From Escherichia phage vB_EcoS-95, in sequence record NC_048132.1: DNA of 50,910 bases; one strand, written 5' to 3'. The translations under genes were made by a program, and so were the position numbers. Numbering within the stretch: the stretch's first letter is position 1; each line of letters opens with the position of its first letter. This document shows, piece by piece, positions 1,393 through 50,910 of this stretch. Below the pieces are notes generated by a model that had not been told where the DNA came from, searched no databases, and was given only the letters and a program-made list of their open reading frames with translations.

Positions 1393-1869
1393 TTAGCTAT
1401 TCGTGCTGTTATCACCTTTGTAGAATCTTCCGCCTGGTTCGTAGTCTGAATTTTTGACTACGCGCAACATTTCGTATTTGTCGCAACGGGTAGTAAGAGG
1501 CTTGCCGTTAGAATCAAACCGCAGATCTGGACGACAAAACGAGGCGCGGTATCCTTTGCATCCATTATATTTGTAGTCGTTATGCACCTTTTGTGCTCCA
1601 GCGGCTGAAATCATACCACGCTTTCGCCATTGGTTAACTACTTGCTGAGATACGCGTAGACGTCGAGCCATAGCAGGGACACCGCCGTAATACTCGATCA
1701 GAATGTCAAGGCGAGATTTCAGGCTTGCTTTTACCTCATCTCGCAGGATAAGAAATCCGGTTCGGTGTTTTCGTGGCTTTTTGTCTTTACCTCGTCGCGT
1801 TCCGTTGTTACCGTTAATAGTGCGCTTGTCGATCTCACCCGTAGACACTGCAATTCGTGCATCTTTCAT
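1393..1869 (-). CDS. HTH DNA-binding protein (Cro/YdaS-like motif), candidate regulator
   Basis: GGVPAMARRLRVSQQVVNQWRKRGMIS resembles Cro/CI-type helix-turn-helix; basic N-terminus; divergent from the helicase gene. Confidence 0.4.
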   Translation of the reverse strand: MKDARIAVSTGEIDKRTINGNNGTRRGKDKKPRKHRTGFLILRDEVKASLKSRLDILIEYYGGVPAMARRLRVSQQVVNQWRKRGMISAAGAQKVHNDYKYNGCKGYRASFCRPDLRFDSNGKPLTTRCDKYEMLRVVKNSDYEPGGRFYKGDNSTNS

Positions 1870-8816: not shown

Positions 8817-9212
8817 TCATGTGATATTGAATTTACGGCGCAGTGCTTCAAGATCTTGTCTATTAGCTTTTGCCTGGAACAATTCATCATCGCCCATCTC
8901 CCCTATTCTAGCCATATCCCTGATCCAGTCGTTGCGCATACCATCCAGGCTATACAATTCGAATCCGAAAGGCCGCTTTGACGATCCTTTGGACCAGTAT
9001 TTTCCGCAGACCCCATCTATATAGCCAGCCGTCATCATTCTTGCGCAAAATTCCTTAGATGCAAGGCTGGCGAACATTCGCGGCGTAAGTCCGGCGGCCC
9101 GTGCGAGCCGCTCGCATTCTCTATGCTGATAGATAAATTTGGCTATGTGCTGCCTGTTAAACCAGTCGTATGACTCACACCATTTATACAGATCAAGCAA
9201 AAACATAATCAT
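8817..9212 (-). CDS. Hypothetical protein
   Basis: 131-aa ORF overlapping helicase stop (coupled). Confidence 0.4.
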   Translation of the reverse strand: MIMFLLDLYKWCESYDWFNRQHIAKFIYQHRECERLARAAGLTPRMFASLASKEFCARMMTAGYIDGVCGKYWSKGSSKRPFGFELYSLDGMRNDWIRDMARIGEMGDDELFQAKANRQDLEALRRKFNIT

Positions 9213-10789
9213 CCCAGCAGTATTGGATTGACAAAAATAACACCATTAATAACACAAACATAATTTCTTTCTTCCAGCATTGGCAGCAAGTGCCCTTCTA
9301 TCCTCTTCATTACGCCAGCTTGACCAACGAAAGGTTTTACCTTTCTCGCTGATTCGTACAGGGCGCGAATATTCAGAATCCCTTTATTAGCCTTGCCGTG
9401 TCTAGTGATCAATTCAATCAATTTGCCCATTTCAGCATCATCACCAGCATAACCAGAAGCATTGGCGGCGCTAATGTATGTTTTGCTCAATTCCTGAAAC
9501 ATGATCAGCGCCTCTTGCATTGTTTCCACGTCGATCTCTTTCGACTTCTGCGGGTATCCGGCAGGATTAAACCAGTTGCGGATAACATGCAGGACGGAAG
9601 CAAGCCTGATCACCTGTTTATCCATTTTACCCAGCGCACCGCGTAACATTGTATGAGAATACTTTCCGCCGTCTGCAAGATGCGGTTCCATATCCTGGCG
9701 AGCAATGTTTAGCACTCGCATAGCTGAACGGCTTATTTTCAGCGATATATTTGATTCGCTCATGATGTTATGCACCAATTGATAATATTGGGCCTTCAAT
9801 TCAGAATCAACCGCCTCATAGGTAGAATCACCATTTTCATCAATGAATGAGCGACGGCCTAAGAATGATTCCTCGCGGACCAACAAAAAGCGCTCACTCA
9901 CACCGATACCGCGCGATCCAGCGTCCATGATTCCGCTTATCGTTTCATCCTGGGCTATAACGCTCATACATCCAAGCGCGCGAAAACTCATGTTATTGTC
10001 AGCATTAGCACGGGCAATTGATACGTGACCATTATCCCACGCCTTAAGCACTAGCTCACTGTTAGTCTTCCTTTCGCTATTTGCATAGGTCAAGCCTAAC
10101 AGGCTGTTAATACTTGTTGCTTCGTCAGATATTACGGCAAAGTTACCTTGCTTGTTGTTGATTTTCGCCAAGCCTTCTGGAGTGGTATCTGAAACAGGGA
10201 AAGTTATATCACACATCTTTTCCAGCTTCTCCTCCAGATCCTCTTTTTCCTGGTATAGAGATTCCATATCAGCGCCTGATCTTTCGCTTTTCATCTCCTT
10301 TGCAAGACCTGCCAACTTTGCCTGTATTTTCTTTCTTTCCTTGCGGCGTTGCTCGTTGATCTTCTCAACTTCCGCAATCATCGGAGCAATAGCCATACTG
10401 TTGATCGCAGATTTACCAGTTGACGGCGGCTGGCTTGTAACGACGTAAAGCGCAGTCGGCTGATCGGTTCCGTGATAGTCAACTGTAAAGCGTCCAAGCA
10501 TAGCGGCAGAAATGCAGCCGATAAAGTGCATGTAAGCCGATGATTCAGGGAATTGAACTGATCGCGCAATGCTGCGTGATAGCTTGCCGACAACATCAAT
10601 ATCATTACCAAGAGAAATTACGGGGTAGCGATCGTGACCGCTATTTACATCCTTCACGTCGCCCCAAAAGCTGGACGACTGGCGATAGCCGTTAGCCTGA
10701 ATTGATACGCGAACTGGCGAAAGGTTCTGGCTTTCAGCCATAGCGATTATTTGCTGTGGAGTTAATTTGTTCGTTTCTAATGAAAACAT
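9209..10789 (-). CDS. SF3-type helicase / replication ATPase (P4-alpha or D5-like)
   Basis: Walker A SQPPSTGKS (SF3 GPPxTGKS pattern), Walker B-like FAVISDE; 526 aa. Confidence 0.5.
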   Translation of the reverse strand: MFSLETNKLTPQQIIAMAESQNLSPVRVSIQANGYRQSSSFWGDVKDVNSGHDRYPVISLGNDIDVVGKLSRSIARSVQFPESSAYMHFIGCISAAMLGRFTVDYHGTDQPTALYVVTSQPPSTGKSAINSMAIAPMIAEVEKINEQRRKERKKIQAKLAGLAKEMKSERSGADMESLYQEKEDLEEKLEKMCDITFPVSDTTPEGLAKINNKQGNFAVISDEATSINSLLGLTYANSERKTNSELVLKAWDNGHVSIARANADNNMSFRALGCMSVIAQDETISGIMDAGSRGIGVSERFLLVREESFLGRRSFIDENGDSTYEAVDSELKAQYYQLVHNIMSESNISLKISRSAMRVLNIARQDMEPHLADGGKYSHTMLRGALGKMDKQVIRLASVLHVIRNWFNPAGYPQKSKEIDVETMQEALIMFQELSKTYISAANASGYAGDDAEMGKLIELITRHGKANKGILNIRALYESARKVKPFVGQAGVMKRIEGHLLPMLEERNYVCVINGVIFVNPILLG

Positions 10790-12242: not shown

Positions 12243-12252
12243 CGTCATTACC

Positions 12253-13733: not shown

Positions 13734-14021
13734 TTCAACAACTTTTCCAGTTAAAGAGATAAGTTGCCTTGTAATCTTGTGGCGGCGATACTTACGCGCA
13801 ACAACAGGAAGGCTTTCACCGCTTTGATGACCAAAACAGATCGGCAATTCACCTTCAAGGGAGCGGAAGCCACCAAATTCAAGATCCCGCACTGGCTTAG
13901 CGCGCCAGGCTTCAATAAATCCGCGCTCGTCACGAGTGATATAGCGGTATATGTTCGGGAGGGGCAATTGTATCCCCTCAAAATCCACGGTATCGGTATA
14001 GCTATAAAACTTAGAACTCAT
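13731..14021 (-). CDS. Hypothetical protein
   Basis: Trimmed to MSSKFYSY (RBS GGAG) from track 13731-14072. Confidence 0.4.
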   Translation of the reverse strand: MSSKFYSYTDTVDFEGIQLPLPNIYRYITRDERGFIEAWRAKPVRDLEFGGFRSLEGELPICFGHQSGESLPVVARKYRRHKITRQLISLTGKVVE

Positions 14022-14163
14022 AGTCAACAACTCCAAACTCATTGACGATTTGCGCCTTATAGAAGCCACCATTTTTCGCCAGGTTGTAACAAGCGGCTAC
14101 GGTTTCAAATTCGCGCGATTCCGGCTGGCTGTTTTCGTGTTCCCAGGTAATCAGAGTAACCAT
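14011..14163 (-). CDS. Small hypothetical protein (50 aa), not in ORF track
   Basis: ATG preceded by GCGAGGA; MVTLITWEHENSQPESREFETVAACYNLAKNGGFYKAQIVNEFGVVDYEF; overlaps next start. Confidence 0.35.
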   Translation of the reverse strand: MVTLITWEHENSQPESREFETVAACYNLAKNGGFYKAQIVNEFGVVDYEF

Positions 14164-14196
14164 TTTCAAATCCTCGCATTCGTTGTCGATGCGTGT

Positions 14197-14239
14197 AATG
14201 TACAGGAATGCGAGGATTGAGTTTTAACAAAAAGTGCCA
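14197..14239 (-). promoter_or_regulatory. Box promoter (minus; variant TGGCAC; -10-like TACATT; leader CATCGACAACGAA inside a 12-bp inverted repeat that includes the RBS)
   Basis: ATCCTCGCATTC ... GAATGCGAGGAT inverted repeat spans hexamer, leader and RBS. Confidence 0.55.
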
Positions 14240-14240
14240 T

Positions 14241-14504
14241 TTAGTCCAGGAATTCGATTTCACGCTCTCCAGTTAACGGATCCACAAGCCAGAATCCGAG
14301 CGGTTCGCCGTGAACACCTTCATAGAATCCAAGCGCCGCCAGATCTTCACCTTTAACAAATACCAGGTTTCCGCTACGGCTTACGTGAGACACGTTAACG
14401 ATAACCGGAAATGTGCGATCCTTAAATGCAGGCCGCAGGGCGTAACATCCGTTGTTTAGCAAACGTGCTTTGCGCTTAACTGGAATAGGTGCATTAATTT
14501 TCAT
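14241..14504 (-). CDS. Hypothetical protein
   Basis: 87-aa ORF. Confidence 0.4.
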   Translation of the reverse strand: MKINAPIPVKRKARLLNNGCYALRPAFKDRTFPVIVNVSHVSRSGNLVFVKGEDLAALGFYEGVHGEPLGFWLVDPLTGEREIEFLD

Positions 14505-14516
14505 GGTTATTACTCC

Positions 14517-14729
14517 TTATCGTAAAGATTTAAAGACGTATAGTTTACTGCGGTAACTATATATCCGCATTGTTATTTCTCGCAGTGCAATATATTCCTT
14601 CCTGTTTTCCGGCAGACTGGCGAGCAATAGCAGGCAGTATTTATAAGCGCGGTCAAGATTCCTTTCCGTGCCCCTGCAATATCCCTTGTTGCGCCTGGAG
14701 CGGTACAGCCATAACAATTTCTTGAACAT
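14517..14729 (-). CDS. Hypothetical protein
   Basis: Trimmed to internal ATG (MFKKLLW) that follows upstream stop. Confidence 0.3.
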   Translation of the reverse strand: MFKKLLWLYRSRRNKGYCRGTERNLDRAYKYCLLLLASLPENRKEYIALREITMRIYSYRSKLYVFKSLR

Positions 14730-14730
14730 T

Positions 14731-14940
14731 TCAGATACGCCCATACAGATCACAGACTTCGTTGATAAAATTGCTTTTCGCCCCTTTGTTGTCACGCTCA
14801 AGAATTGCGCGGCATTCAAACTTATGATTATGCACGATGACTACAACCATGTTTTCAGGCATTGAGCGGTTATAGCGTTGCGCATCACTGATTGAAACAT
14901 CCATACCCATCTCATGTGCTTTCTTGATCACATCCAACAT
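14731..14940 (-). CDS. Hypothetical protein, paralog of 14928-15194
   Basis: MLDVIKK start with RBS AGGAG; shares GxxSNFINEVC motif with upstream neighbour. Confidence 0.4.
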   Translation of the reverse strand: MLDVIKKAHEMGMDVSISDAQRYNRSMPENMVVVIVHNHKFECRAILERDNKGAKSNFINEVCDLYGRI

Positions 14941-15194
14941 TTTTTCTTCTCCTGCAATAAGCAAACATCATTGATAAAATCAGCACGGCCCTTAATGTTG
15001 CTGATGTGGAACGTCTTTTCAGCGTACAGGCCATCACCTTCAATCACGATCATTACGCGAGTCGGTTTATTCACGGGCGCACACGAAAAGAGTGGGCGCA
15101 CCGGAAGAAATTTAGTCATCACATCCAGGTTGGCCCTGGCGGCCCTGCAAAACGCCTCCGCCAGATCCAAATCATTTTCGGTAATCACCGCCAT
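14928..15194 (-). CDS. Hypothetical protein, paralog of 14731-14940
   Basis: RBS GAGGAG; GRADFINDVC motif shared with downstream neighbour. Confidence 0.4.
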   Translation of the reverse strand: MAVITENDLDLAEAFCRAARANLDVMTKFLPVRPLFSCAPVNKPTRVMIVIEGDGLYAEKTFHISNIKGRADFINDVCLLQEKKKCWM

Positions 15195-15466
15195 TACTTC
15201 TTGATCTCCTCACTGATAAATTTCAGCACCTGACGCAAGAAAACCTCGTTGTTGATAGTCGCTGGCAATTCTTCTTTCACTTCTTGCGGCAGATAGATAT
15301 TGCCGTGCCAGGTCAAGCAATCGTAGTTGATACGATAAGAGCAAAGCCACTCGCAATCGTTATCTGCTTCCCAAATGCAGAGTTGCAGAACATCGCCAAA
15401 ATCTTCAACAGTCAGATCCAGACCGTGACGCTTGGCGAAATTGAAAGTGGTTTTGCTGATGTTCAT
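15194..15466 (-). CDS. Hypothetical protein (first gene of the leftward block)
   Basis: 90-aa ORF with RBS AGGAG. Confidence 0.45.
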   Translation of the reverse strand: MNISKTTFNFAKRHGLDLTVEDFGDVLQLCIWEADNDCEWLCSYRINYDCLTWHGNIYLPQEVKEELPATINNEVFLRQVLKFISEEIKK

Positions 15467-15500
15467 TGCTATCTCCTGAGCGGTTCGTTTCGATGTGTGT

Positions 15501-15543
15501 AATGTACCCGATCAGACGGCCTGAGTTTTAACAAAAAGTGCTA
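15501..15543 (-). promoter_or_regulatory. Box promoter (minus; -10-like TACATT; leader CATCGAAACGAA)
   Basis: Exact reverse-complement box at 15525-15543. Confidence 0.55.
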
Positions 15544-15544
15544 T

Positions 15545-16099
15545 TTGACGGTTAGCGCCAGGATTGCGATCGAAATAATCAAAAGTAATCATTCGTAATC
15601 AAATCACGTCAAAATGATGATTGCCTTTGCAAATTTGATGAGAAAAGCAATCACGTTTAATCATTGGTTGCAGGGGAGATAGTGAAACCCTCCCCTCTCG
15701 CCTCACTTTTCCGCCTGGCTGTCAGTGGTTGTTGTCTTTTGTTCACCCCTGTTACCGATTTCAGGCGGCGTGTTTCCGCGCGGTTTTCCGGTGTAGCGAA
15801 AACGGAAAAAACAAAGAAAATCCTCTATAATACATTGAAAATAAAGATTATTTATTTATATATATCTATAATGTTTTCTTTTTGTTCTCACTGTTACAGT
15901 GCTTTTTGTTGGTTATGGTGTGGTTGTGTGTGGGCATATATGGATAGTTGCGCGCGCGGCGGATTGCATATGTATATATACTTTTTCCGGCGGATTGCGT
16001 TAACAGCGTGAACAGAAAAATAACAGCCGCGAAATCAATAACTTGCGCATGATTTTGTAGTTTTTCGATATTGGTAACGTTTTGAATACAACAAAAACA
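15545..16099. promoter_or_regulatory. AT-rich non-coding strand-switch region with AATCA-type short repeats, inverted repeats and a duplicated GGCGGATTGC element; candidate origin and control region
   Basis: No convincing ORF; TAATCA repeats 15570-15660; GGCGGATTGC twice about 32 bp apart flanking ATATGTATATATAC; T/G-rich tract TTATTTATTTAT...GTTGGTTATGGTGTGG. Confidence 0.4.
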
Positions 16100-16127
16100 T
16101 TGACACGCACCAAATAGCTTTTATAAT
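16100..16127 (+). promoter_or_regulatory. Near-consensus sigma70 promoter (TTGACA-16 bp-TATAAT) for rightward early transcription
   Basis: TTGACA at 16100-16105 and TATAAT at 16122-16127. Confidence 0.6.
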
Positions 16128-16623: not shown

Positions 16624-16883
16624 TGAAAAAGGCATTAATCGGCGTTTTGGCGGCAATGACACTCCTGACCGGATGCGAAAAGGCATCAGAATCAACGGTT
16701 GTCGTAGGCGTTGAGTCAGATTTCAAAGTCGGCCGCCTGTTCACTGTTGACGGATGCACAGCATACAGATTCTATGATAACGGTCGCGCGATCTATTACA
16801 CCAGTTGCAAAGGCGCAACGGATAGCACATACAACAGCGGAAAGAACGTAATGCACCAGCAAGTCACAACAGATATTAAATAG
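16623..16883 (+). CDS. Putative lipoprotein
   Basis: Signal peptide with lipobox LLTGC; 86 aa. Confidence 0.5.
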   Translation: MKKALIGVLAAMTLLTGCEKASESTVVVGVESDFKVGRLFTVDGCTAYRFYDNGRAIYYTSCKGATDSTYNSGKNVMHQQVTTDIK

Positions 16884-16923
16884 CACTTTTTGTTAAAACG
16901 CCAGGCGCAAAGCCTGGCATAAT
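16881..16923 (+). promoter_or_regulatory. Box promoter (hairpin GCCAGGCGCAAAGCCTGGC; CATAAT; leader CATCGAAACGAG)
   Basis: Exact box overlapping stop TAG. Confidence 0.6.
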
Positions 16924-17156: not shown

Positions 17157-17342
17157 ATGAAAACGAAATTAGTCCATAAATCAGAAATCAAGATCGGCGA
17201 TACTGTGATTCACAACGGAGAGCTTAGAACGGTTGGCAAAGAGTCAATAAGCCACGATGAATTTATGGGGATCTTGTTGTTCGGCGACTCTTATCGTCTT
17301 GGTTACAAGATGGTTGAGCTTGTGGAAGAAGTGAAATTCTAA
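17157..17342 (+). CDS. Hypothetical protein
   Basis: 61-aa ORF. Confidence 0.4.
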   Translation: MKTKLVHKSEIKIGDTVIHNGELRTVGKESISHDEFMGILLFGDSYRLGYKMVELVEEVKF

Positions 17343-17343
17343 A

Positions 17344-17386
17344 TAGCACTTTTTGTTAAAACTCAAAAACGATAACCAGGCATAAT
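17344..17386 (+). promoter_or_regulatory. Box promoter (CATAAT at 17381-17386)
   Basis: Exact box one base after stop TAA. Confidence 0.6.
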
Positions 17387-29170: not shown

Positions 29171-30286
29171 ATGAAGGCAAAACAAAGATTTGATAGCGCC
29201 AAAGTAAAGGCGCACTTTGATGATAACGGGTTTTTAGTTGATCGCCCTATCGTGGCGCGAATTGGTTTACAAGTCTATCAGACTCCTTTCGGTGAGCGCA
29301 GAGAATTTCGTCCTGCGTCCGAAGTATTCAAGGCCGACTCACTCGCCACCTTCGCAGGGAAGCCAGTCACGGTTGGTCACGTTACGGTAACTCCAGAAAA
29401 CGCCGAAAAGGTTGTGGTTGGTTCTTGTGCTGGTGCTGGTGTGCCGAACGGGATCGGCGTAGAGGTTCCGTTAAGCATTTACTCAAAACGAGCAATCGAA
29501 AGCGCGAAGAAGCGAGACACGGCGGAGATTTCAGTTGGTTATACATCGGTTGATATTGATAAACCAGGCTGGGGCAATAATAAAACTGGTGAGTACGTTT
29601 TCGATGAGGATGTTAGCGAAGACTGGAAACCTGATTCTCCTGATTGGGTTAAGTTTGATGCAATCCAGACTGAAATCAAGGTAAACCACATCGCGTTAGT
29701 TTTCCGAGGTCGAGCTGGCATTGCAAAATTAAACCTTGATAGCCAGCAAGATTTTCCGTATAGTGACGATGTTATTAACAACAAAGAGGATCAAATCATG
29801 ACTGTAAAAATTAAACTGGATGGCGCTGTAGAGTTTGACGTGCCAAAAGCAGTTGCGGATCACATTGAATCACTGAAAGCTGATGCCAAAGCACAGAAAG
29901 AAAAGGCGGACGGCCTGGAAGCTGAGCGAGATGCACTGCAAACCAAAGTAGATGGCATTCAGGATCAGATTGATGCCGCAGTCAAGAAAGCCAAAGAAGA
30001 TGCCGCGCAACATGCTCAATTAGTAGCAGACGCTAAAGAGTTAGGCATCAAGTGCGACGGCCTGGATGCGAAAGCAATCAAGGTTGCATACATCAAAGAA
30101 GTTATGGGCAATGACGTTTCCGATAAAACTGATGCCTATATCGAAACAGCTTTCGACATCGCCAAAAACTCTGATAAAATGGCGGCACAGCGTAAGAGCA
30201 TTAAAGGTGACTCTTTCGCTAATGAAAAACAGGATGACGCAGGTTCTAAGCTGAATCCTAACGCTCGTTTTGAGAAACTGAAATAA
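29171..30286 (+). CDS. Putative scaffolding / prohead core protein
   Basis: Position between portal and capsid genes; coiled-coil-like charged region (KADGLEAERDALQTKVDGIQDQIDAAVKKAKEDAAQHA). Confidence 0.35.
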   Translation: MKAKQRFDSAKVKAHFDDNGFLVDRPIVARIGLQVYQTPFGERREFRPASEVFKADSLATFAGKPVTVGHVTVTPENAEKVVVGSCAGAGVPNGIGVEVPLSIYSKRAIESAKKRDTAEISVGYTSVDIDKPGWGNNKTGEYVFDEDVSEDWKPDSPDWVKFDAIQTEIKVNHIALVFRGRAGIAKLNLDSQQDFPYSDDVINNKEDQIMTVKIKLDGAVEFDVPKAVADHIESLKADAKAQKEKADGLEAERDALQTKVDGIQDQIDAAVKKAKEDAAQHAQLVADAKELGIKCDGLDAKAIKVAYIKEVMGNDVSDKTDAYIETAFDIAKNSDKMAAQRKSIKGDSFANEKQDDAGSKLNPNARFEKLK

Positions 30287-30298
30287 GGAGTAATTAAA

Positions 30299-30778
30299 AT
30301 GGCTAAAATTGGAGCAAGTTATTTTGACACTATGGCGATCGCACTACCTGGCATGGTTGCCGACACTTCTAAATACAACATTGACGGCGCTTGCGTCGTT
30401 AGTGAAGGTGGGGAAATTCTTGTTGGTACTGCCGTGCAGGTTGTCGCAGTGCAAGCGGTTGAAGGTCATAAACTTATTAAGCGCATGGAAGCAGAAAAAT
30501 ATCCTTACGGTGTGGCAATTCGCTCTCACTGGCAAACTGTTAACTCTCAAGGACAGATGGTTTATGAAGAAGGAAGCGCAATCAACGTAATGACATCTGG
30601 AAGAGTTTGGATTCGTTCAAAGTCCAGCGCAGCACCAGTCTTCGGCACTGCCGTTAAACTTGATGTTGATGGTCATGAAAAATCAGACGGCGCAATCACT
30701 ACTAACTGGACATACGCTGGCGGATTTGTCAAATATAAAGATATTAATCTTGTAGAAGTTCAGTTGCAGCAACTGTAA
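30299..30778 (+). CDS. Capsid decoration-like protein (paralog A)
   Basis: Shares N-terminal domain with 30839-31852 (YNIDGACV...GRVW...AGGFVK...EVQ). Confidence 0.4.
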   Translation: MAKIGASYFDTMAIALPGMVADTSKYNIDGACVVSEGGEILVGTAVQVVAVQAVEGHKLIKRMEAEKYPYGVAIRSHWQTVNSQGQMVYEEGSAINVMTSGRVWIRSKSSAAPVFGTAVKLDVDGHEKSDGAITTNWTYAGGFVKYKDINLVEVQLQQL

Positions 30779-45152: not shown

Positions 45153-45181
45153 AAAAAGGGGGCATAGCCCCCTTTAATTTT
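45151..45181. terminator. Bidirectional rho-independent terminator between convergent J and the minus-strand operon
   Basis: GGGGG-CATAG-CCCCC flanked by A7 upstream and TTTAATTTT downstream. Confidence 0.65.
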
Positions 45182-45794
45182 AATCATAGTGCGATGAATT
45201 TATAACCAAAACAGATGAAGCCGTGTAAATACCAACAGGACCAGAAGTTTGCGCAACCTGCCTAGATAAAGAATATACCCCGTTGCCATACGCGGCAGCT
45301 TGAGACTCAAATATCATGAATCCACCTAAAGACGGATTACGCACAGAGTTTAAAGCTGTTAGTGACGGCATGATGGCGCAAGGGTATCCCAAGTTAACGT
45401 CAAAAGTGATCCCGCTTACAGATACAAGTTTTGCATCTAAAGGCTTCATCTTTCCATGATAAACCATCTCACCATTAGCATTATAAAAAGCTATTCCGTG
45501 ACTACCAGGAGGAGTAACCATATTGCTAAAAGCATAAACAAATACCTCACCTTGATTGTCGGACTTTTCTATCTTTATTGCGTGCTTCCCACCATTATTA
45601 AATTGAGTAAATGCTATGTATGATTTTGATGTTAACCTTACAAAAAAGAAGCACGGTCTATTTATTGGTATAGAAGTATTAAAAACGGTTCCTGTTTTTG
45701 CTGATATTTTACCTTTATCTATAAGGTTAACAGGAGTGAAATCTGGACTTAACCACAATGATCCGTCTGGTTTTTTTATGCTCATCCCGTACAT
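45180..45794 (-). CDS. Hypothetical protein (possible receptor-binding or exclusion-related)
   Basis: 204 aa; start overlaps upstream stop; last gene of the Cor-like operon. Confidence 0.35.
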   Translation of the reverse strand: MYGMSIKKPDGSLWLSPDFTPVNLIDKGKISAKTGTVFNTSIPINRPCFFFVRLTSKSYIAFTQFNNGGKHAIKIEKSDNQGEVFVYAFSNMVTPPGSHGIAFYNANGEMVYHGKMKPLDAKLVSVSGITFDVNLGYPCAIMPSLTALNSVRNPSLGGFMIFESQAAAYGNGVYSLSRQVAQTSGPVGIYTASSVLVINSSHYD

Positions 45795-45796
45795 TA

Positions 45797-46075
45797 TTAC
45801 CCCCAAAAAGTATATATATATCTTGAGTCAGATCCAGAAAGTCCGCTCCATGTAACGGTATCACCACTTACACCTAAACTTGGAGCGCCAGGATCTCCTC
45901 CGCGCCACGAATTCATTCCAACATATATTGCTTTCAACGACTTACCTGGCGGCCTGTTTGAGTAGGTCTTACTGCCAGATGATTGAGTAAATTTATCCAA
46001 GAAAAAAACTGGAGTTAAAAGGCCAGTAACATTTCTACCTTGCTCATCATATATTGCATACCCATATTCAGCCAT
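45797..46075 (-). CDS. Hypothetical protein
   Basis: 92 aa; RBS GAGGTG; Gly/Ser-rich C-terminus. Confidence 0.35.
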   Translation of the reverse strand: MAEYGYAIYDEQGRNVTGLLTPVFFLDKFTQSSGSKTYSNRPPGKSLKAIYVGMNSWRGGDPGAPSLGVSGDTVTWSGLSGSDSRYIYTFWG

Positions 46076-46343
46076 TTTTGCACCTCAAATCAATGAATTT
46101 TCTTTCATCTTGCCAACGGTTGATAAATTTAACTTCTTTATTGTCAACGCTCAACCTGTATTGCTTTTGGCTGAATCTGTTTTCGCGGACCGCATTAATT
46201 TTAACTTCATGGAATCCGTTAACAGGGAATGTTTTAACGTTAAATTTTGCCGTGCAATCGATCTCCTTGAAGTTGCCAGTAGGCGAAGAAGAACATCCGG
46301 TCAGAGCGGCTACGGTGGCGATAACTGCGATTAATTTTTTCAT
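46068..46343 (-). CDS. Cor-like superinfection-exclusion lipoprotein candidate
   Basis: Signal peptide with lipobox LTGC (MKKLIAVIATVAALTGCSS); small size; location next to tail genes as for cor in T1/phi80-type phages. Confidence 0.4.
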   Translation of the reverse strand: MKKLIAVIATVAALTGCSSSPTGNFKEIDCTAKFNVKTFPVNGFHEVKINAVRENRFSQKQYRLSVDNKEVKFINRWQDERKFIDLRCKNG

Positions 46344-46374
46344 CTTCAATACCCCTTAGTTGTTGTTGGCTGTA

Positions 46375-46415
46375 ACTATACACGATCCGGCAAGCCGAGT
46401 TTAGCAAAAAGTGCT
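46375..46415 (-). promoter_or_regulatory. Box promoter variant (TAGCACTTTTTGCTAAAC) for the Cor-like operon
   Basis: Reverse complement of box at 46398-46415; -10-like TATAGT downstream. Confidence 0.5.
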
Positions 46416-46419
46416 ACTT

Positions 46420-46786
46420 GTTATTTTTTGTTTTTCGGTGTTATCGGATTTAAGGCGGCGTAAATTTAGCGCAAATTTTAGCCAACATAAGAACAATAAA
46501 TAATCAATAAAATAGGTATATACATATAAAATCAATAGTTTATTTATTTATGTATGTGTATTTGTTTTTTCTTGTTATCTGTGTTTCTTGTGGTTTTGGT
46601 TGTTTGTGGTGATTTTTCTTTCTGAGTATCTGTATGTGCCATCATTCATGTGTATGTATATAATCCGGCGTACCTTAGAGAACAAGGGAACAAGAAAAAT
46701 AACACATATTAATCATTAACTTACGCGTCAAATTTGTTTTATTGCCATCTGAGAACGTTTAGAAAACAGAAAAAACAAAACAACTA
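46420..46786. promoter_or_regulatory. Second AT-rich, T/G-skewed non-coding region, paralogous to 15840-15930
   Basis: TTATTTATTTATGTATGTGTATTTGTTTTTTCTTGTTATCTGTGTTTCTTGTGGTTTTGGTTGTTTGTGGTG resembles the tract in the 15.8-kb region; AATCA repeats; no ORF. Confidence 0.4.
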
Positions 46787-46814
46787 TTGACTAAATCAAC
46801 CAAATGGCTACAAT
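46787..46814 (+). promoter_or_regulatory. Sigma70-like promoter (TTGACT-16 bp-TACAAT) for the recombination operon
   Basis: Hexamers at 46787-46792 and 46809-46814, about 30 bp upstream of exonuclease ATG. Confidence 0.55.
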
Positions 46815-46844
46815 GCACACACAAAGCAACCAGGAGCATTAAAG

Positions 46845-47900
46845 ATGAGTGATTTTAACGCCTACACTAGCGAAGAAATGAGCAATGAGCTTTATCATGA
46901 TCCTAACGCGTGGACGGCTGAATACGTCAGCGGTTCCAGCCTGGCGGAGATTTACAGCACTTGCCCGGCGTACTGGAAGTACAAACCTCGCCAGGAAACT
47001 AAGGCACTTGTTTTCGGTACGCAGTCGCATACCAATTTTGAAAGCAATGAGTTATTCGAAAAAACATATCGCCGCGCACCGTCGCAGGATGATTTTAAAG
47101 ATCTGATCACAAGTCAAACGGCGTTGGCCTCAAAGCTGAAATCTTTTGGCCTGAAAGGTACAACGGGTAAGCAATACCCCGAATTGCTGGAAATGCTGTA
47201 CAAGTGCGGTGAGGATCTCAATGTATGGTGGCTTATCGAAATGATGGCAGAATGCCAGGCAGCAGCGGACGGCGTGCAGCTAATCGACGCGAAAGATTAT
47301 GATGCCTGTGTAGCGATGCGGCGCGTACTTGAGGCAATACCTGAGCATAATGCTTGCATGAATAGCCCAACCGCGCAGCGTGAAATGTCAATATTCGGGA
47401 TCATCAATGGCGTAAAAGTTAAAGTGCGCCTTGATCACGTTGACGTAAACAAGGATGTAAAGGCCACAATCATTAACGGTTACGACGAAAAAGGCCGACC
47501 GATTTATGAAGAAGTCATCTATCCAGAAGCTGTGATTATCACTGACTATAAAACAACGGTTAGCGCAAATCCGGTTGACTTCCAGCGCCTGGCTTACAAT
47601 CACGGCTATTATCTCAAAATGGCTTTGCAGCATGATTTATTTAAAAAGGCGTATCCAGACGAGGAAAGGCCAGTAATTGTGAGATTGCTTGCTCAAGAGA
47701 AGAAAGAGCCTTACTTGCCGCTCGCATTCCGCATGAACATTGAGCAATTGAAGATCGGTCGCATCCAGTACATGAGCGTGATCAACAAGTTCAACGTTTG
47801 CCAACAGTTAGATGAATGGCCTTCGTATGCAAACGGGCAACCAGAAATTGATCTTGATACTCCTGATTGGGTGCGCGCTCAATTCAGGCAGTATCTATGA
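46845..47900 (+). CDS. Recombination exonuclease (PD-(D/E)XK, RecE/lambda-Exo-like)
   Basis: IITDYKTT and YxxxQ nuclease motifs; located upstream of ERF. Confidence 0.5.
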   Translation: MSDFNAYTSEEMSNELYHDPNAWTAEYVSGSSLAEIYSTCPAYWKYKPRQETKALVFGTQSHTNFESNELFEKTYRRAPSQDDFKDLITSQTALASKLKSFGLKGTTGKQYPELLEMLYKCGEDLNVWWLIEMMAECQAAADGVQLIDAKDYDACVAMRRVLEAIPEHNACMNSPTAQREMSIFGIINGVKVKVRLDHVDVNKDVKATIINGYDEKGRPIYEEVIYPEAVIITDYKTTVSANPVDFQRLAYNHGYYLKMALQHDLFKKAYPDEERPVIVRLLAQEKKEPYLPLAFRMNIEQLKIGRIQYMSVINKFNVCQQLDEWPSYANGQPEIDLDTPDWVRAQFRQYL

Positions 47901-47973: not shown

Positions 47974-48630
<657 letters not shown>

Positions 48631-48635
48631 TAAAC

Positions 48636-48656
48636 GGGGCGCTTGCGCCCCTTTTG
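48636..48656 (+). terminator. Rho-independent terminator-like hairpin after erf
   Basis: GGGGCGC-TT-GCGCCCC followed by TTTTGT. Confidence 0.5.
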
Positions 48657-48673
48657 TCATAGGAGAAAACAAA

Positions 48674-49126
48674 ATGCACGTTATTACAGGTGAGATCAGA
48701 AAAGAGCCAAAAGTAAAGCAAATGCCTAACGGCAGCACGCTATATGTTGTTGAGCTTTCCGAGCGATACAAAGACCGAGATGGAAATTGGCAGTATACAA
48801 ACTATGTGTTTTTCTTTAACGCGAAAACAGACGGCCTGAATGGTTGGTATGCTGAGGCTTTCCAGGTAGGCAAGGTTATTTCTGTTTCCTGCGATACCTT
48901 GCGAGTTGAAACGCGAGAATACAACGGAAAGATTTACAGCACCGTGCAGCCTGGCGGATTTGCAAACCTGCTATTTAGCCAGCGCGGAGAAAGCCAGCAA
49001 CAATATCAGCAGCGAACGCAAGGAGGCTGTGGGCAACCACAACAGCAACAGCAACAAAATACTCAACAGCAGCCACAGCAAAGCAATCAGCCGCCGATTG
49101 ACTTTGACGATGATATACCATTCTAA
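48674..49126 (+). CDS. ssb: Single-stranded DNA-binding protein
   Basis: OB-fold-sized N-terminus, Gln/Pro-rich linker and acidic tail DFDDDIPF. Confidence 0.75.
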   Translation: MHVITGEIRKEPKVKQMPNGSTLYVVELSERYKDRDGNWQYTNYVFFFNAKTDGLNGWYAEAFQVGKVISVSCDTLRVETREYNGKIYSTVQPGGFANLLFSQRGESQQQYQQRTQGGCGQPQQQQQQNTQQQPQQSNQPPIDFDDDIPF

Positions 49127-49163
49127 TGACAAAAAGCCCCGCATATGCGGGGCATTTTTATTT
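49127..49163. terminator. Bidirectional rho-independent terminator between ssb and the convergent tail-fibre gene
   Basis: GCCCCGCA-TA-TGCGGGGC flanked by A5 and TTTTTATTT. Confidence 0.65.
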
Positions 49164-50910
49164 GAGATCAACAAGTTTTGCAACCATCGACTTTAATTCG
49201 TCAACCTCTCGCTCAAGATTATCTATTCTTTCCTTGTTTTCAACGTCACGCGCCCTAAGAGCCTTGATTGCAGCAAGGCCATCAAGAAGCATAGGTGTTT
49301 GATCAAGATGCCAGAATCCTCCAACGTCCTTTGTGTATTCCTTGTCGATCGCCCTTATTTGCTGGGAAATAACGCCGCGACGAGTTGCACCAGCATTTTT
49401 CTTTGTTGTATGCTCCTCTTTAAACTTAAATAGTTTAAACTCCATTCTGTTGATGTTATCAAGCGCACACTCGACATTCATATCACCCATCACGTCCTTT
49501 AATCGCTCGTCAGACACGGCGCTTGTTGTCAGTTGCACCCATCCACTCCATGATGAGTCGTTTGTCTGTATTCTTGAGAATATCCTGTTTGACGTATCAT
49601 AAAACCTTTGCTGATACCACTTATTTCTAGTACCAACATTGTTTGCCCTTCCGGCTGATAATCCTTGCGAGCACTGAGTGAAAAGAGAGCCGTATACATT
49701 CCCGCTTTGAGGCGTTCCTGTTCCAGTGCCACCCCAATTTCGCCACCCTTGATGCGCTTCATTCATGTTTGCTGCCGTGTAACCAGGGACCGATGTTCCA
49801 CCTATAGCAAGCCCACCCTCATATGAAACATATCTTCTCTCCGTTGTATTTGGTCTTTCAATAACAATCGTCCTTCGATCTGTGTTATCACTTTCTTTTG
49901 CGAAAAATATGTTTAACTCATTCCCTCTGTTGTTTTCTGCATAAATACGTCTACCTATATATGTTTCGTCAACAGATGTAGAATTAAGAACTACAGAAGG
50001 CCATCCCGTTCTAATTGACAATCCTGAAAATGTAGGTGAGTGTTGTGCATTAAGGCCGATATTGTTTCGTATTCCGTTTGCGTCTTTAGCTCCTGTTCCA
50101 CCCTTATTTACTGGCAAGGCTATATCAGAATTAGAGGCTGAATCCCACATCCCCCAATCGCCATTATTTTTTACGAAAATTCGCTTTGTTCCATCAGCAC
50201 TTGAAACGACAGTCTCACCGGATGCATCAGACCCCTGCACCAATCTATCTACGCTTAAGTTTTTTCTTGCTTCACCTTTATCTGCAAGATCGTTAAGGTT
50301 GTTGTTTTTGTTAAGCATATTTTCCGGATTTATGCTATCTGCATATTCTTTCGCCTTATCTTCAGAAGCCTTAGCGGCATTTTTTGATGTCAGGGCGTCA
50401 GAAGCAGATCTGGCAGCTTCGCTCTTGCTTGCATTGGCTGCATTCTCTGAATTTTTGGCATTTGTCTCCGACGTCTTTGCTGCATTCTGAGAAGCGAGCG
50501 CAGCTTCCTGAGATGCTTTAGCGGCATCCTTGCTTGCATTTGCTGCGTCTTCTGAATTTTTTGCTTTAGTTTCTGAATTCTTTGCGGCGTTCTGAGATGT
50601 TAGCGCAGCAGACGCTGAATTTGCCGCCTCTATCATGCTTGAGTTAGCCGCCGTTTCAGATGCTTTAGCATTAGTCTCTGACTCTTTTGCTGCAATCTTG
50701 CTCGCGTTTGCTGCGTTTTCTGACTGTTTAGCATTAGTCTCTGACGCTTTCGCTTCGTTCTTTGAATTAAGCGCATCGGACGCAGATCTTGCTGCGGCAT
50801 CCTTACTTTGACTCGCAGACTCTGCGTTTTCTTCCACCTGTTTAGCTAAATCCTGATAATGCCTCCAATCAAACGTCTTAAGGAATTCGAGCGCCTCCCC
50901 AATCTCTGAT
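49158..50910 (-). CDS. Tail fibre protein with C-terminal intramolecular chaperone domain (5'-truncated at window end)
   Basis: Ser/Ala/Asn/Lys repeats (ASETNAKNSENAANASK) like T5 pb1-type fibres; C-terminal ERLKDV...peptidase S74-like chaperone; reading frame stays open to 50910. Confidence 0.65.
   Translation of the reverse strand, partial: SEIGEALEFLKTFDWRHYQDLAKQVEENAESASQSKDAAARSASDALNSKNEAKASETNAKQSENAANASKIAAKESETNAKASETAANSSMIEAANSASAALTSQNAAKNSETKAKNSEDAANASKDAAKASQEAALASQNAAKTSETNAKNSENAANASKSEAARSASDALTSKNAAKASEDKAKEYADSINPENMLNKNNNLNDLADKGEARKNLSVDRLVQGSDASGETVVSSADGTKRIFVKNNGDWGMWDSASNSDIALPVNKGGTGAKDANGIRNNIGLNAQHSPTFSGLSIRTGWPSVVLNSTSVDETYIGRRIYAENNRGNELNIFFAKESDNTDRRTIVIERPNTTERRYVSYEGGLAIGGTSVPGYTAANMNEAHQGWRNWGGTGTGTPQSGNVYGSLFTQCSQGLSAGRANNVGTRNKWYQQRFYDTSNRIFSRIQTNDSSWSGWVQLTTSAVSDERLKDVMGDMNVECALDNINRMEFKLFKFKEEHTTKKNAGATRRGVISQQIRAIDKEYTKDVGGFWHLDQTPMLLDGLAAIKALRARDVENKERIDNLEREVDELKSMVAKLVDLK

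What the first reader, a model, noticed from the sequence alone, without database searches (positions are those of the whole stretch)
46420..46786. Second AT-rich region paralogous to the first, at the other strand-switch point
The tract TTATTTATTTATGTATGTGTATTTGTTTTTTCTTGTTATCTGTGTTTCTTGTGGTTTTGGTTGTTTGTGGTG (about 46540-46610) closely resembles TTATTTATTTATATATATCTATAATGTTTTCTTTTTGTTCTCACTGTTACAGTGCTTTTTGTTGGTTATGGTGTGGTTGTGTGTGGG (about 15850-15930). Both regions sit between a leftward box-driven operon and a rightward operon with a near-consensus sigma70 promoter. A duplicated regulatory or origin module is unusual in a small phage genome.
Basis: seen in the sequence. Interest (0 to 1): 0.55.

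Follow-up and report, generated by a model that had tools for sequence, protein, structure and literature searches.

The report
Duplicated origin-like module in T1-like phage
This T1-like coliphage carries two ancient copies of a ~370-bp non-coding module (phased short repeats in mirror-image arrays around the genome's easiest-to-melt AT-rich DNA, ending in a strong early promoter), which looks like a replication origin or early-gene control platform, and no origin has been reported for this phage family in the papers I could search.

Summary
The window is a Warwickvirus genome (Drexlerviridae, 98.7% identical to phage tonijn). The two regions align over ~370 bp (15730-16100 and 46419-46787), not 70 bp. 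The score is 95, against 22.7±2.7 for dinucleotide shuffles and 29.5±6 for composition-preserving block shuffles.

A profile built only from 23 diverse copies upstream of exoVIII finds the other copy in this window (E=7e-33), in TLS (2e-23) and in T1 (1e-6). There are two copies per genome, in the same orientation.

Sites are spaced 9-10 bp. Six of the genome's seven phased triplets lie here (0.3 expected). The AT cores are the two least stable duplex segments in the genome. T1 has TGTWACA at aligned positions; all six genome copies lie in its two regions.

Distant phages with the same MCM-like DUF3987 helicase have analogous repeat/AT-core regions upstream of their replication operon.

Best reading: an iteron-plus-unwinding-element origin module, duplicated as in SPP1 oriL/oriR and coupled to early promoters (about 0.45). 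Main rival: an operator or enhancer array for the early promoters.

The parts
46375..46418 (-). Leftward 'box' promoter at the left edge of copy 2. Read on the minus strand it is the box AGTAGCACTTTTTGCTAAAC plus a TATAGT -10-like hexamer. It drives the cor-like/lipoprotein genes at 45180-46349.
   Evidence: It belongs to repeat family D3/I11-I12. This is the 21-nt repeat described for TLS (PMC11447400).
46419..46442 (+). Copy 2, triplet A: TGTT at 46419, 46429 and 46439, in 10-bp steps.
   Evidence: Model columns 0-29 carry TGTT in 18-20 of 24 non-redundant copies.
46452..46472 (+). Copy 2, GC box 1: AAGGCGGCGTAAATTTAGCGC.
   Evidence: It aligns with CAGGCGGCGT in copy 1 and with GCGGAG/GGCGTAAAT in relatives.
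46484..46495 (+). Copy 2, AACA doublet (46484 and 46492), in the opposite orientation to triplet A.
   Evidence: Model columns 60-79 carry AACA in 14-16 of 24 copies.
46487..46566 (.). Copy 2, AT-rich TATATA core. It is the least stable 80-bp duplex segment in the genome. It contains a perfect IHF-consensus match, AATCAATAGTTTA, at 46530-46542.
   Evidence: Nearest-neighbour ΔG is -80.9 kcal/mol, z=4.84. The IHF-like site at model position 106 is present with at most 1 mismatch in 14 of 24 copies.
46563..46604 (+). Copy 2, triplet B: TGTT at 46563, 46573 and 46582, plus a fourth at 46601.
   Evidence: Model columns 140-169 carry TGTT in 18-24 of 24 copies.
46605..46663 (+). Copy 2, variable GT-rich spacer and a second small AT patch (CATGTGTATGTATATAA).
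   Evidence: The region is rich in indels and poorly conserved in alignments.
46664..46678 (+). Copy 2, GC box 2: TCCGGCGTACCTTAG.
   Evidence: It is conserved as ATCCGGCG(C/T)AAAT across Tempevirinae and aligns with TCCGGCGGATT in copy 1.
46681..46704 (+). Copy 2, triplet C: AACA at 46681, 46689 and 46701. It mirrors triplets A and B.
   Evidence: Model columns 260-289 carry AACA in 20-26 counts per 24 copies.
46711..46723 (+). Copy 2, second IHF-like site: AATCATTAACTTA, 1 mismatch to WATCAANNNNTTR.
   Evidence: Model position 298 matches with at most 1 mismatch in 17 of 24 copies.
46735..46782 (+). Copy 2, promoter-proximal sites: TGTT at 46735, and AACA at 46765, 46774 and 46779. The A-rich part lies in the UP-element position.
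46787..46814 (+). σ70 promoter (TTGACT, 16 nt, TACAAT) for exoVIII (DUF3799), Erf and SSB.
   Evidence: TTGACT and the -10 are conserved in 23 relatives.
15522..15546 (-). Leftward 'box' promoter at the left edge of region 1. It drives the operon at 8696-15466, which includes the DUF3987 helicase.
   Evidence: D3, I14, I15, I20.
15547..15729 (.). Segment found only in region 1 and absent from copy 2. It has TAATCA/AATCAC repeats and a G-rich dyad. It is probably the pac part and is not part of the shared module.
   Evidence: It is not covered by the R1/R2 alignment or by the HMM. Base 1 of the T1 record, the pac end, falls in the equivalent T1 segment. It is the third most curved 120-bp stretch in my wedge model.
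15730..15753 (+). Copy 1, triplet A: TGTT at 15730, 15740 and 15750. It includes TGTTCACC.
15806..15885 (.). Copy 1, AT-rich core. It is the second least stable 80-bp segment in the genome and the least stable at the 40-bp scale. AACA at 15810 precedes it.
   Evidence: ΔG is -81.9 kcal/mol, z=4.68. The 40-bp window 15825-15864 has z=4.50.
15872..15910 (+). Copy 1, triplet B: TGTT at 15872, 15883 and 15892, plus a fourth at 15907.
15986..16045 (+). Copy 1: GC box 2 (TCCGGCGGATTGCG), triplet C (AACA at 16002, 16011 and 16022) and a perfect IHF-consensus match, AATCAATAACTTG, at 16033-16045.
16090..16127 (+). Copy 1: promoter-proximal AACA sites (16090 and 16096) and the consensus σ70 promoter (TTGACA, 16 nt, TATAAT) for the early small genes.
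9209..10789 (-). Candidate trans-acting partner: a DUF3987 helicase with an MCM-like AAA+ fold and a C-terminal winged-helix-like domain (residues ~450-526).
   Evidence: Pfam E=1.7e-44. The AF2 model has pLDDT 86.5 and H-β-H-H-β-β topology. Top Foldseek hits are MCM2-7 and Cdc6/Orc1.
1393..1869 (-). Candidate trans-acting partner: a YdaS/Cro-like HTH protein next to the primase gene.
   Evidence: Pfam YdaS_toxin 1.2e-6 and P22_Cro 6.5e-4. PDB Cro-like hits. A homologue sits between the origin-like region and the helicase in L077.

Best explanation
Shown: the two regions are ancient paralogous copies of one ~370-bp cis-acting DNA module that is conserved across Drexlerviridae. The module is a platform of short sites, TGTT/AACA here and TGTWACA in T1. 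The sites come in triplets spaced 9-10 bp apart and are arranged as mirror-image arrays around the most easily melted AT-rich segment of the genome. There are two conserved IHF-consensus matches. The right end is fused at a fixed distance to a strong σ70 early promoter.

Inferred: a phage-encoded sequence-specific protein coats the phased sites. Candidates are the YdaS/Cro-like HTH protein (1393-1869) and the winged-helix C-terminus of the MCM-like DUF3987 helicase (9209-10789). With IHF-induced bending, and perhaps with transcription from the adjacent promoter, this would open the TATATA core so that the helicase and primase can start replication. The modules would then be the replication origins of T1-like phages.

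Two copies would parallel SPP1 oriL/oriR. The copy upstream of exoVIII, Erf and SSB could be either a second origin or a bound roadblock that triggers the switch to recombination-dependent concatemer synthesis. The same bound complex probably also modulates the two early promoters.
For: - **Paralogy and conservation.** The R1/R2 alignment scores z=27 against dinucleotide shuffles and z=11 against block shuffles. T1's own two regions are also similar to each other (66 against 27.4±4.7). An HMM built only from R2 copies finds R1 copies across the family, with two per genome.
- **Site architecture.** 24 non-redundant copies share the same TGTT and AACA blocks at the same model positions, with spacing peaks at 9-10 and 19-20 bp. 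Six of the 7 phased triplets in the 50.9-kb genome lie in the modules at matching offsets, against 0.3±0.6 in shuffles.
- **Lineage-specific sites in both copies.** In T1, TGTAACA/TGTTACA occurs 6 times in the genome and all 6 are in its two regions; GTGTAACA is 4 of 4. Phages of the same host using different site flavours argues for a phage-encoded binder.
- **Unwinding element.** The AT cores are the two least stable duplex segments in the genome.
- **IHF-like sites** are conserved at two fixed positions.
- **Link to replication genes.** Distant phages with DUF3987 helicases have a 560-620-bp region with the same layout but different repeats. L077 has G5/C5 runs, 16 of 19 in the locus. L078 has CTTACA, 10 of 21. 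In both, the region sits around the least stable DNA and directly upstream of an operon encoding HTH (small gene in L078), DUF3987 helicase, primase (L078 only), SF2 helicase, DUF3799 exonuclease and downstream recombination genes (AAA_24 recombinase and SSB in L077).
- **Helicase fold.** The helicase is MCM/Orc-like with a C-terminal winged helix. DUF3987 proteins are 5'-3' helicases (PMC11724360).
- **Documented precedents.** PICI origins have two iteron sets flanking an AT-rich region (PMC6092414). SPP1 has two similar origins made of direct repeats plus a DUE (PMC6316719).
- **Open question in the field.** The papers I read on T1-like phages report no identified origin (PMC11447400, PMC7718038).
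Against: - There is no experimental or coverage evidence for initiation at either site.
- GC skew follows transcription and gives no origin signal.
- The binder is not identified. The winged-helix and HTH assignments rest on fold or topology, and the Foldseek matches are weak (TM about 0.33, E=1e-4 to 1e-3).
- The core motif in this phage is only 4 nt. Its T-tract context could partly reflect phased A-tract structure rather than a protein site.
- Every copy is welded to a σ70 promoter at a fixed distance. In T1's region 1 the sites overlap the promoter core, which is what an operator array would look like.
- In this genome the modules are not adjacent to the helicase and primase genes in the way they are in L077 and L078.
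Confidence: 0.45

Rival explanations
1. The module is an early-promoter control region only. A phage regulator, for example the YdaS/Cro-like HTH or an early gene product, binds the repeat arrays and, together with IHF, builds a repressing or activating complex. This complex switches the two strongest host-RNAP early promoters, and perhaps the divergent box promoters, on or off. The AT-rich core would serve as bendable or UP-like DNA. This resembles the φ29 p4/p6 early-late switch region (recalled from memory).
For: - In both copies the first site lies 368-370 bp from the -35, and the junction to TTGAC(A/T) is conserved across the family.
- The promoter-proximal AACA sites occupy about -40 to -60.
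- The two promoters are the best intergenic σ70 matches in the genome, and TLS has only three such promoters (PMC11447400).
- In T1 region 1 and in L078 the sites overlap the -35/-10/+1 region.
- Both copies in this phage lie between divergent promoters.
Against: - Conserved arrays 150-370 bp upstream, mirror-symmetric around the least stable DNA in the genome, are more than simple operators need.
- In TLS the second copy has no divergent promoter to coordinate.
- Analogous regions in distant phages track the replication operon.
- This reading does not exclude an origin function, since iteron origins commonly double as operators.
Confidence: 0.3
2. The module is a host-factor platform with no dedicated phage binder. 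Phased T/A-tracts, IHF sites and very AT-rich DNA would act as curved or UP-element-like upstream DNA bound by IHF, Fis or H-NS, or by a host OmpR/ArcA/PhoP-type regulator (their direct-repeat motifs are recalled from memory). This would boost or condition early transcription.
For: - IHF-consensus matches are conserved at two positions.
- The sites sit in T-tract contexts (TTTTTGTT) at about 10-bp phasing.
- The motif resembles direct-repeat sites of winged-helix response regulators (memory only).
Against: - T1 and this phage infect the same host but use different site flavours at aligned positions: TGTWACA, exclusive to the two T1 regions, against TGTT(C/A). L077 and L078 use G5 and CTTACA.
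- My curvature model does not rank the modules among the most curved DNA in the genome (parameters recalled from memory).
Confidence: 0.12
3. The module is a packaging (pac) recognition site for the small terminase, with the second copy being a second or pseudo-pac site.
For: Region 1 is where the T1 and TLS genome ends are placed. Many related records start about 100 bp from the conserved core.
Against: - Base 1 of T1 falls in the segment that is unique to region 1 (window 15547-15729), not in the shared module.
- TLS and T1 restriction data describe one pac fragment (PMC11447400). A functional pac at copy 2 would give a second packaging series.
- Copy 2 is the better conserved copy, yet it is 20-30 kb from the mapped end.
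Confidence: 0.05
4. The region encodes a small RNA or peptide, or the similarity is a low-complexity artefact.
For: The plus strand of 46420-46786 folds somewhat better than shuffles (z=-2.64). Some GenBank records annotate small hypothetical ORFs there.
Against: - There is no Rfam match and no terminator-like site in the 46100-47000 scan.
- The fold signal is what the mirror-image TGTT/AACA arrays produce, and the minus strand gives z=-0.92.
- Alignments are full of indels in the spacers, while short phased DNA motifs are kept.
- Composition-preserving shuffles exclude chance.
Confidence: 0.03

Closest known systems
Bacillus phage SPP1 oriL / oriR (two origins bound by gp38)
   Same: SPP1 is a lytic pac-type siphophage of ~44 kb with two distant regions of similar organisation, direct repeats plus an AT-rich unwinding element. 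oriR is proposed to stall forks and trigger the switch to recombination-dependent replication, which uses an exonuclease, an annealase and an SSB (PMC6316719). Here there are also two similar repeat/AT-core regions, one of them directly upstream of exoVIII, Erf and SSB.
   Different: The phage family, the repeats and the replication proteins are unrelated: a DnaB-type helicase plus loader in SPP1, and an MCM-like DUF3987 helicase plus a T7/P4-type primase here. SPP1 oriL lies inside gene 38, whereas both copies here are intergenic and fused to σ70 promoters. No binding or initiation data exist for T1-like phages.
PICI/SaPI replication origins
   Same: [quoted passage not shown] The layout here is the same: site arrays on both sides of the least stable DNA.
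   Different: A PICI origin is single-copy and lies immediately 3' of its rep gene. Here there are two copies 20-30 kb apart that are not adjacent to the helicase gene. The sites are shorter, phased triplets, and a promoter is attached.
Phage P4 ori and crr (type I iterons bound by the C-terminal winged helix of the α primase-helicase), recalled from memory and not checked here
   Same: P4 has two separated cis elements carrying the same short iteron. As I recall it, the iteron is TGTTCACC, a string that occurs in copy 1 at 15740-15747, and TGTTCAC/GTGAACA is enriched in the TLS modules. The binder is a winged helix at the C-terminus of a replicative helicase. The primase zinc ribbon (PF08273) is shared with the window's primase.
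   Different: No sequence match to any PDB chain of P4 α was found for the helicase or its family profile. The helicase families differ. The resemblance of the motif is a lead from memory, not a test.
Archaeal Orc1/Cdc6 origins (ORB elements in inverted orientation flanking an AT-rich DUE); established knowledge, not tested here
   Same: These have mirror-image initiator sites around a DUE and AAA+ proteins with a C-terminal winged helix. The phage helicase model's best structural matches are MCM subunits and Cdc6/Orc1.
   Different: The structural similarity is weak (TM about 0.33), there is no sequence homology between the sites, and the context is bacterial and viral.
The 21-nt 'box' repeat of T1-like phages (aaATAGCACnnnTTGnTAAAA)
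   Same: It occurs in the same genomes and is also an unexplained conserved intergenic element. It bounds the left edge of both regions (PMC11447400).
   Different: It is a separate element. There are about 19 single copies upstream of genes in the direction of transcription, not a 370-bp composite module present twice.

Membership tests
Iteron-plus-DUE replication origin | Clustered, repeated short sites with regular spacing | tested here: met
   There are triplets of TGTT/AACA at 9-10-bp steps. Six of 7 genome-wide phased triplets lie in the two modules, against 0.3±0.6 in shuffles. T1 TGTWACA is 6 of 6 in its two regions.
Iteron-plus-DUE replication origin | Adjacent AT-rich, easily melted unwinding element | tested here: met
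   The cores at 46487-46566 and 15806-15885 are the two least stable 80-bp segments in the genome (z=4.84 and 4.68).
Iteron-plus-DUE replication origin | Sites bound by the element's own initiator protein | not testable with these tools
   Only candidates could be named: the YdaS/Cro-like HTH and the winged-helix C-terminus of the DUF3987 helicase. Lineage-specific site flavours are consistent with a phage-encoded binder.
Iteron-plus-DUE replication origin | Replication initiates there, or the element supports replication in cis | not testable with these tools
   No coverage, 2D-gel or plasmid data are available. GC skew follows transcription and is uninformative.
Iteron-plus-DUE replication origin | Physical association with replication genes | tested here: inconclusive
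   In the distant DUF3987 phages L077 and L078 the analogous region directly precedes the replication operon. In this window, copy 2 precedes exoVIII, Erf and SSB, and copy 1 heads the operon containing the helicase about 5 kb away. Neither copy abuts the helicase or primase gene.
SPP1-type dual origins | Two distant regions in one genome with the same repeat-plus-AT organisation | tested here: met
   There are two full-length copies per genome in the window, TLS and T1, with matching site offsets.
SPP1-type dual origins | One initiator binds both regions, and one copy acts as origin while the other acts as a late origin or fork barrier | not testable with these tools
   This can only be inferred by analogy (PMC6316719).
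σ70 promoter upstream control region (operator or enhancer array) | Fixed spatial relation of the sites to a promoter | tested here: met
   The first TGTT lies 368 bp (copy 2) and 370 bp (copy 1) from the -35. The junction is conserved in 23 relatives.
σ70 promoter upstream control region (operator or enhancer array) | Sites overlapping core promoter elements (repression) or at -40 to -90 (activation) | tested here: inconclusive
   In the window AACA sites lie at about -10 to -25 bp upstream of the -35 hexamer but not within the -35/-10. In T1 region 1 and in L078, sites overlap the promoter core.
pac site (terminase recognition and first cut) | Mature genome ends map to the element | tested here: not met
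   Base 1 of T1 maps to the segment unique to region 1, outside the shared module. Copy 2 is 20-30 kb from the mapped end, and one pac fragment is reported for TLS (PMC11447400).
Described non-coding RNA family (Rfam) | Match to a curated covariance model | tested here: not met
   There were no hits at gathering threshold in the whole window.

The most novel reading that the evidence does not exclude
The two modules are the so far unidentified replication origins of the T1 family. Phased TGTT/AACA (T1: TGTWACA) triplets would be bound by a phage protein, either the YdaS-like HTH or the winged helix of an MCM-like DUF3987 helicase. This would melt the TATATA core. The copy upstream of exoVIII, Erf and SSB would serve as a second origin or as a bound fork barrier that triggers the switch to recombination-dependent concatemer synthesis, as proposed for SPP1 oriR. 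The same complex would time shut-off of the two host-RNAP early promoters. This would give a bacterial virus an Orc/MCM-style origin logic.
Probability: 0.35. Interest if true: 0.7.

Novelty: new member of a known kind. Interest (0 to 1): 0.55.

Why it matters
T1 is one of the original T-phages, and T1-like phages are common laboratory and fermentation contaminants. The papers on T1-like phages that I could read state that no origin of replication has been identified (PMC11447400, PMC7718038). In those papers the only conserved non-coding element discussed is the 21-nt box repeat.

A family-wide, duplicated, highly structured 370-bp module gives two precise places to test for initiation, early-promoter control and protein binding. 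It also ties the poorly understood MCM-like DUF3987 helicases of phages and mobile elements to a candidate cis site. If one copy is a fork barrier or second origin next to the recombination genes, it would link replication initiation to the concatemer formation that T1 packaging needs.

Practically, the module is a candidate target for CRISPR-based decontamination, and it is a landmark for orienting Drexlerviridae genomes.

Tried and rejected
- **GC/AT skew profile.** It simply follows gene orientation and gives no origin signal.
- **Single-genome k-mer enrichment in the window.** It was dominated by AT-rich words. The site only became clear from multi-genome alignment and position-resolved counts.
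- **Intrinsic curvature.** I used a wedge model with parameters recalled from memory. The modules are not among the most curved segments, although the region-1-only segment is. I dropped 'curved DNA' as the main explanation.
- **Sequence searches of the DUF3987 helicase, its family profile and the HTH protein against PDB.** Nothing useful came up for the helicase, and in particular no P4 α origin-binding domain. Only weak Cro-like hits came up for the HTH.
- **PHROGs on ten small genes of the leftward operon.** All are of unknown function, so no binder candidate emerged. A second batch failed on a coordinate error and was not repeated.
- **Chi-like reading of the GT-rich spacer.** The GGTGG-type strings are not conserved across relatives, so I rejected it.
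- **ncRNA reading.** There is no Rfam hit, and the modest plus-strand fold z-score is explained by the DNA dyad symmetry.
- **pac reading of the shared module.** I rejected it because the mapped T1 end lies in the segment unique to region 1.
- **Recognition-helix comparison of the HTH and the helicase C-terminus between T1 and this phage.** Both proteins differ between lineages, so co-variation with the sites cannot single out the binder.
- **Literature searches for a prior description.** I found none in the held library. The original T1 and Rtp genome papers are not in it, so prior mention there cannot be excluded.
Full report
**What the window is.** The region 46300-46900 is 98.7% identical to Escherichia phage tonijn (Drexlerviridae, Tempevirinae, Warwickvirus). 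The 50.9-kb window behaves as a complete T1-like genome.
- Region 2 (R2) is the intergenic space 46350-46844. It lies between three leftward cor-like/lipoprotein genes and the rightward exoVIII (DUF3799), Erf and SSB genes.
- Region 1 (R1) is the intergenic space 15467-16125. It lies between a leftward operon (8696-15466, which includes a DUF3987 helicase) and the rightward early small genes that run into the terminase and structural genes.

**Check of the observation.**
- Both quoted strings are present at the stated places.
- The 70-nt tracts score 53 in local alignment. Mononucleotide shuffles give 22.0±3.3 and shuffles within 12-nt blocks give 27.0±5.3. None of 2000 shuffles reached 53 in either control.
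- The similarity extends well beyond the tract. The regions align from 15729-16100 to 46418-46788 with a score of 95. Dinucleotide shuffles give 22.7±2.7 and 30-nt block shuffles give 29.5±6.0.
There are leftward copies of the 21-nt box at 15522-15546 and 46391-46418, and rightward σ70 promoters at 16100-16127 (12/12) and 46787-46814 (10/12).

**The paralogy is family-wide and old.**
- T1's own two equivalent regions (record end plus 1-538, and 29851-30377) also resemble each other: 66 against 27.4±4.7.
- I collected 43 loci around exoVIII homologues and 27 around terminase homologues from IMG/VR. I aligned 24 non-redundant R2 regions. From 23 of them (dropping the truncated L046 copy) I built a profile HMM that excludes the promoter.
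- That HMM, which never saw an R1 sequence, finds R1 over the full model in the window (15735-16103, E=6.6e-33), in TLS (127-522, 1.7e-23), in T1 (213-436, 1.2e-6) and in many other Drexlerviridae.
- Complete genomes have exactly two plus-strand hits, in the same orientation.
- All 43 exoVIII loci carry the R2 copy.
- The closest R1 orthologue compared is 69% identical and the closest R2 orthologues are 67-70% identical, while the two copies within this genome are 61% identical. The duplication therefore predates the divergence of these phages, and I see no sign of recent gene conversion.
- In TLS the R2 copy lies between two rightward genes, so a strand switch is not required.

**Anatomy.** I mapped TGTT and AACA occurrences onto model positions in 24 non-redundant Tempevirinae-type copies, R1 and R2 together. 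This gives a sharp, strand-segregated pattern:

| Model columns | Element |
|---|---|
| 0-29 | TGTT x3 |
| ~30-60 | GC box |
| 60-79 | AACA x2 |
| ~80-140 | TATATA core |
| 140-169 | TGTT x3 |
| 170-255 | variable GT-rich spacer and second GC box |
| 260-289 | AACA x3 |
| 320-329 | single TGTT |
| 350-369 | AACA x2 |
| after 369 | -35 hexamer |

- Distances between like sites peak at 9-10 bp and at 19-20 bp.
- In the window, R2 has TGTT at 46419, 46429, 46439, 46563, 46573, 46582 and 46601. It has AACA at 46484, 46492, 46681, 46689, 46701, 46765, 46774 and 46779.
- R1 has TGTT at 15730, 15740, 15750, 15872, 15883, 15892 and 15907. It has AACA at 15810, 16002, 16011, 16022, 16090 and 16096.
- Triplets of sites at 8-12-bp steps occur seven times in the genome. 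Six of them are these, against 0.3±0.6 in shuffles.
- The left and right arms are mirror images. This explains the reverse-strand self-hits of the HMM, the elevated R1-versus-reverse-complement-of-R2 score (42) and the modest plus-strand folding z-score (-2.64 against -0.92 on the minus strand).
- IHF-consensus matches are conserved at two fixed positions. Model position 106, inside the AT core, matches in 14 of 24 copies. Model position 298 matches in 17 of 24.
- The AT cores are the two least stable duplex segments of the genome at the 40-bp and 80-bp scales (z=4.1-4.8).

**The sites are lineage-specific.**
- At the aligned positions T1-type phages carry TGTAACA, TGTTACA or ATTACA instead of TGTT(C/A)/GAACA.
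- In T1, all six genome copies of TGTAACA/TGTTACA and all four of GTGTAACA lie in its two regions.
- Both phages infect E. coli. A change of site flavour in both copies at once therefore points to a phage-encoded sequence-specific binder rather than a host factor. This is an inference.

**What is not part of the module.** R1 has an extra segment (15547-15729) with TAATCA repeats and a G-rich dyad that R2 lacks. Base 1 of the T1 record, its pac end, falls in the equivalent T1 segment. It is one of the most curved stretches in my approximate wedge model. I take this segment to be the probable pac part, and the shared module to be something else.

**Link to replication.**
- The leftward operon encodes a DUF3987 protein.
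- Its AlphaFold model (pLDDT 86.5) ends in a helix-strand-helix-helix-strand-strand domain with winged-helix topology.
- Its best PDB matches are MCM2-7 subunits and Cdc6/Orc1. The matches are weak (E=7e-5 to 1e-3, TM about 0.33).
- A PriCT-DUF3987 protein has been shown to be an oligomeric 5'-3' helicase, and that paper cites DUF3987 as a superfamily 6 helicase (PMC11724360).
- The C-terminal domain diverges faster than the core: 47% against 62% identity between this phage and T1.
- Two distant phages with 36-37% identical helicases (L077, L078) have a 560-620-bp divergent intergenic region directly upstream of an operon encoding an HTH or small gene and a DUF3987 helicase, followed by replication and recombination genes. 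L078 continues with primase, SF2 helicase and DUF3799 exonuclease. L077 continues with SF2 helicase, DUF3799 exonuclease, an AAA_24 recombinase and SSB.
- Those regions have the same layout with other repeats. In L077, G5 runs on the left and C5 runs on the right (16 of 19 in 21.5 kb) flank a TATATATA core that is the least stable DNA of the locus (z=4.8). In L078, CTTACA/TGTAAG (10 of 21) flank an (AAC)n/AT core.
- The small L077 gene is a homologue of the window's YdaS/Cro-like HTH protein at 1393-1869.

**Interpretation.**
- Arrays of phased sites on both sides of an unwinding element, with IHF sites and a neighbouring strong promoter, are the textbook anatomy of iteron-type origins.
[quoted passage not shown] SPP1 has two similarly organised origins, and its oriR is proposed to stall forks and trigger recombination-dependent replication (PMC6316719).
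- Phage P4's ori/crr pair, with TGTTCACC iterons bound by a C-terminal winged helix, is a further lead from memory. That string occurs at 15740-15747. I could not verify the P4 details here, and sequence searches gave no link.
- I therefore favour a duplicated origin-type module (confidence about 0.45).
- The main rival is a pure control region for the two early promoters (about 0.3). It is supported by the fixed junction to the -35 in every copy and by sites overlapping the promoter core in T1 R1 and in L078.
- The two readings are not exclusive. Iteron complexes often regulate adjacent promoters.
- A host-factor platform (about 0.12), pac (about 0.05) and RNA or artefact (about 0.03) are less likely, for the reasons given under the rival explanations.

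**Novelty.** The TLS re-annotation and the SU57 paper state that no origin was found in these phages, and they discuss only the 21-nt box repeat. Other T1-like papers in the library do not mention such regions. I could not read the original T1 and Rtp genome papers. The element is best filed as a new, uncharacterised member of a known kind: an iteron/DUE origin-like module, duplicated as in SPP1.

Noticed in passing
window, ~19 sites, e.g. 4367-4388, 16877-16898, 17340-17361, 15522-15546(-), 46391-46418(-): A 21-nt box, AAATAGCACTTTTTGTTAAAAC, is followed about 20 nt later by a CATAAT-like -10. It always points in the direction of the downstream genes. It is the 'intergenic 21-base repeat' reported for TLS, whose function is still listed as an open question (PMC11447400). 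It looks like a phage-specific promoter class without a normal -35.
   Followed up: partly
window 15547-15729: This segment is present only in region 1. It has TAATCA/AATCAC repeats and a GGGGAGATAGTGAAACCCTCCCCTCTC dyad, and it is among the most curved DNA in an approximate wedge model. Base 1 of the T1 record (the pac end) lies in the equivalent T1 segment, so this is probably the pac region.
   Followed up: partly
window 9209-10789 (-): The DUF3987 helicase model (pLDDT 86.5) resembles MCM subunits and Cdc6/Orc1 and ends in a winged-helix-like domain (residues ~450-526). That domain diverges faster than the ATPase core.
   Followed up: partly
L077 9200-9640; L078 9230-9740: Distant DUF3987-helicase phages have origin-like regions built from different repeats. 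L077 has G5 runs on one side and C5 runs on the other side of a TATATATA core. L078 has CTTACA/TGTAAG repeats around an (AAC)11 microsatellite at about 9385-9425. Both regions lie directly upstream of the replication operon.
   Followed up: partly
window 50424-50777 (inside minus-strand ORF 49158-50837): There are four copies of an ~81-105-nt repeat (65-80% identical to the reference copy) inside the tail-fibre gene. They are probably a repeated coding domain.
   Followed up: no
window 49041-49065: This is the only phased AACA triplet outside the two modules. It lies inside the SSB-like ORF 48623-49126 and may be chance.
   Followed up: no
GenBank MG0656xx records: Eighteen records named 'Campylobacter phage' with host C. 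jejuni match this coliphage intergenic module at about 74%, like Hanrivervirus-type coliphages. Host labels or contamination in those records look doubtful.
   Followed up: no
window 46636-46664 (+): An internal σ70-like match (GTGCCA, 17 nt, TATAAT; 10/12) lies inside copy 2, between the GT-rich spacer and GC box 2. The spacer around it is poorly conserved in relatives, and I did not test whether this match itself is kept.
   Followed up: no
L046 (Shigella phage 2019SD1) 2261-2813: The R2 module is split into two HMM hits separated by about 180 bp, and the exoVIII match is longer than usual. The GenBank protein is flagged UNVERIFIED_ASMBLY, so this is either an insertion or an assembly problem.
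   Followed up: no
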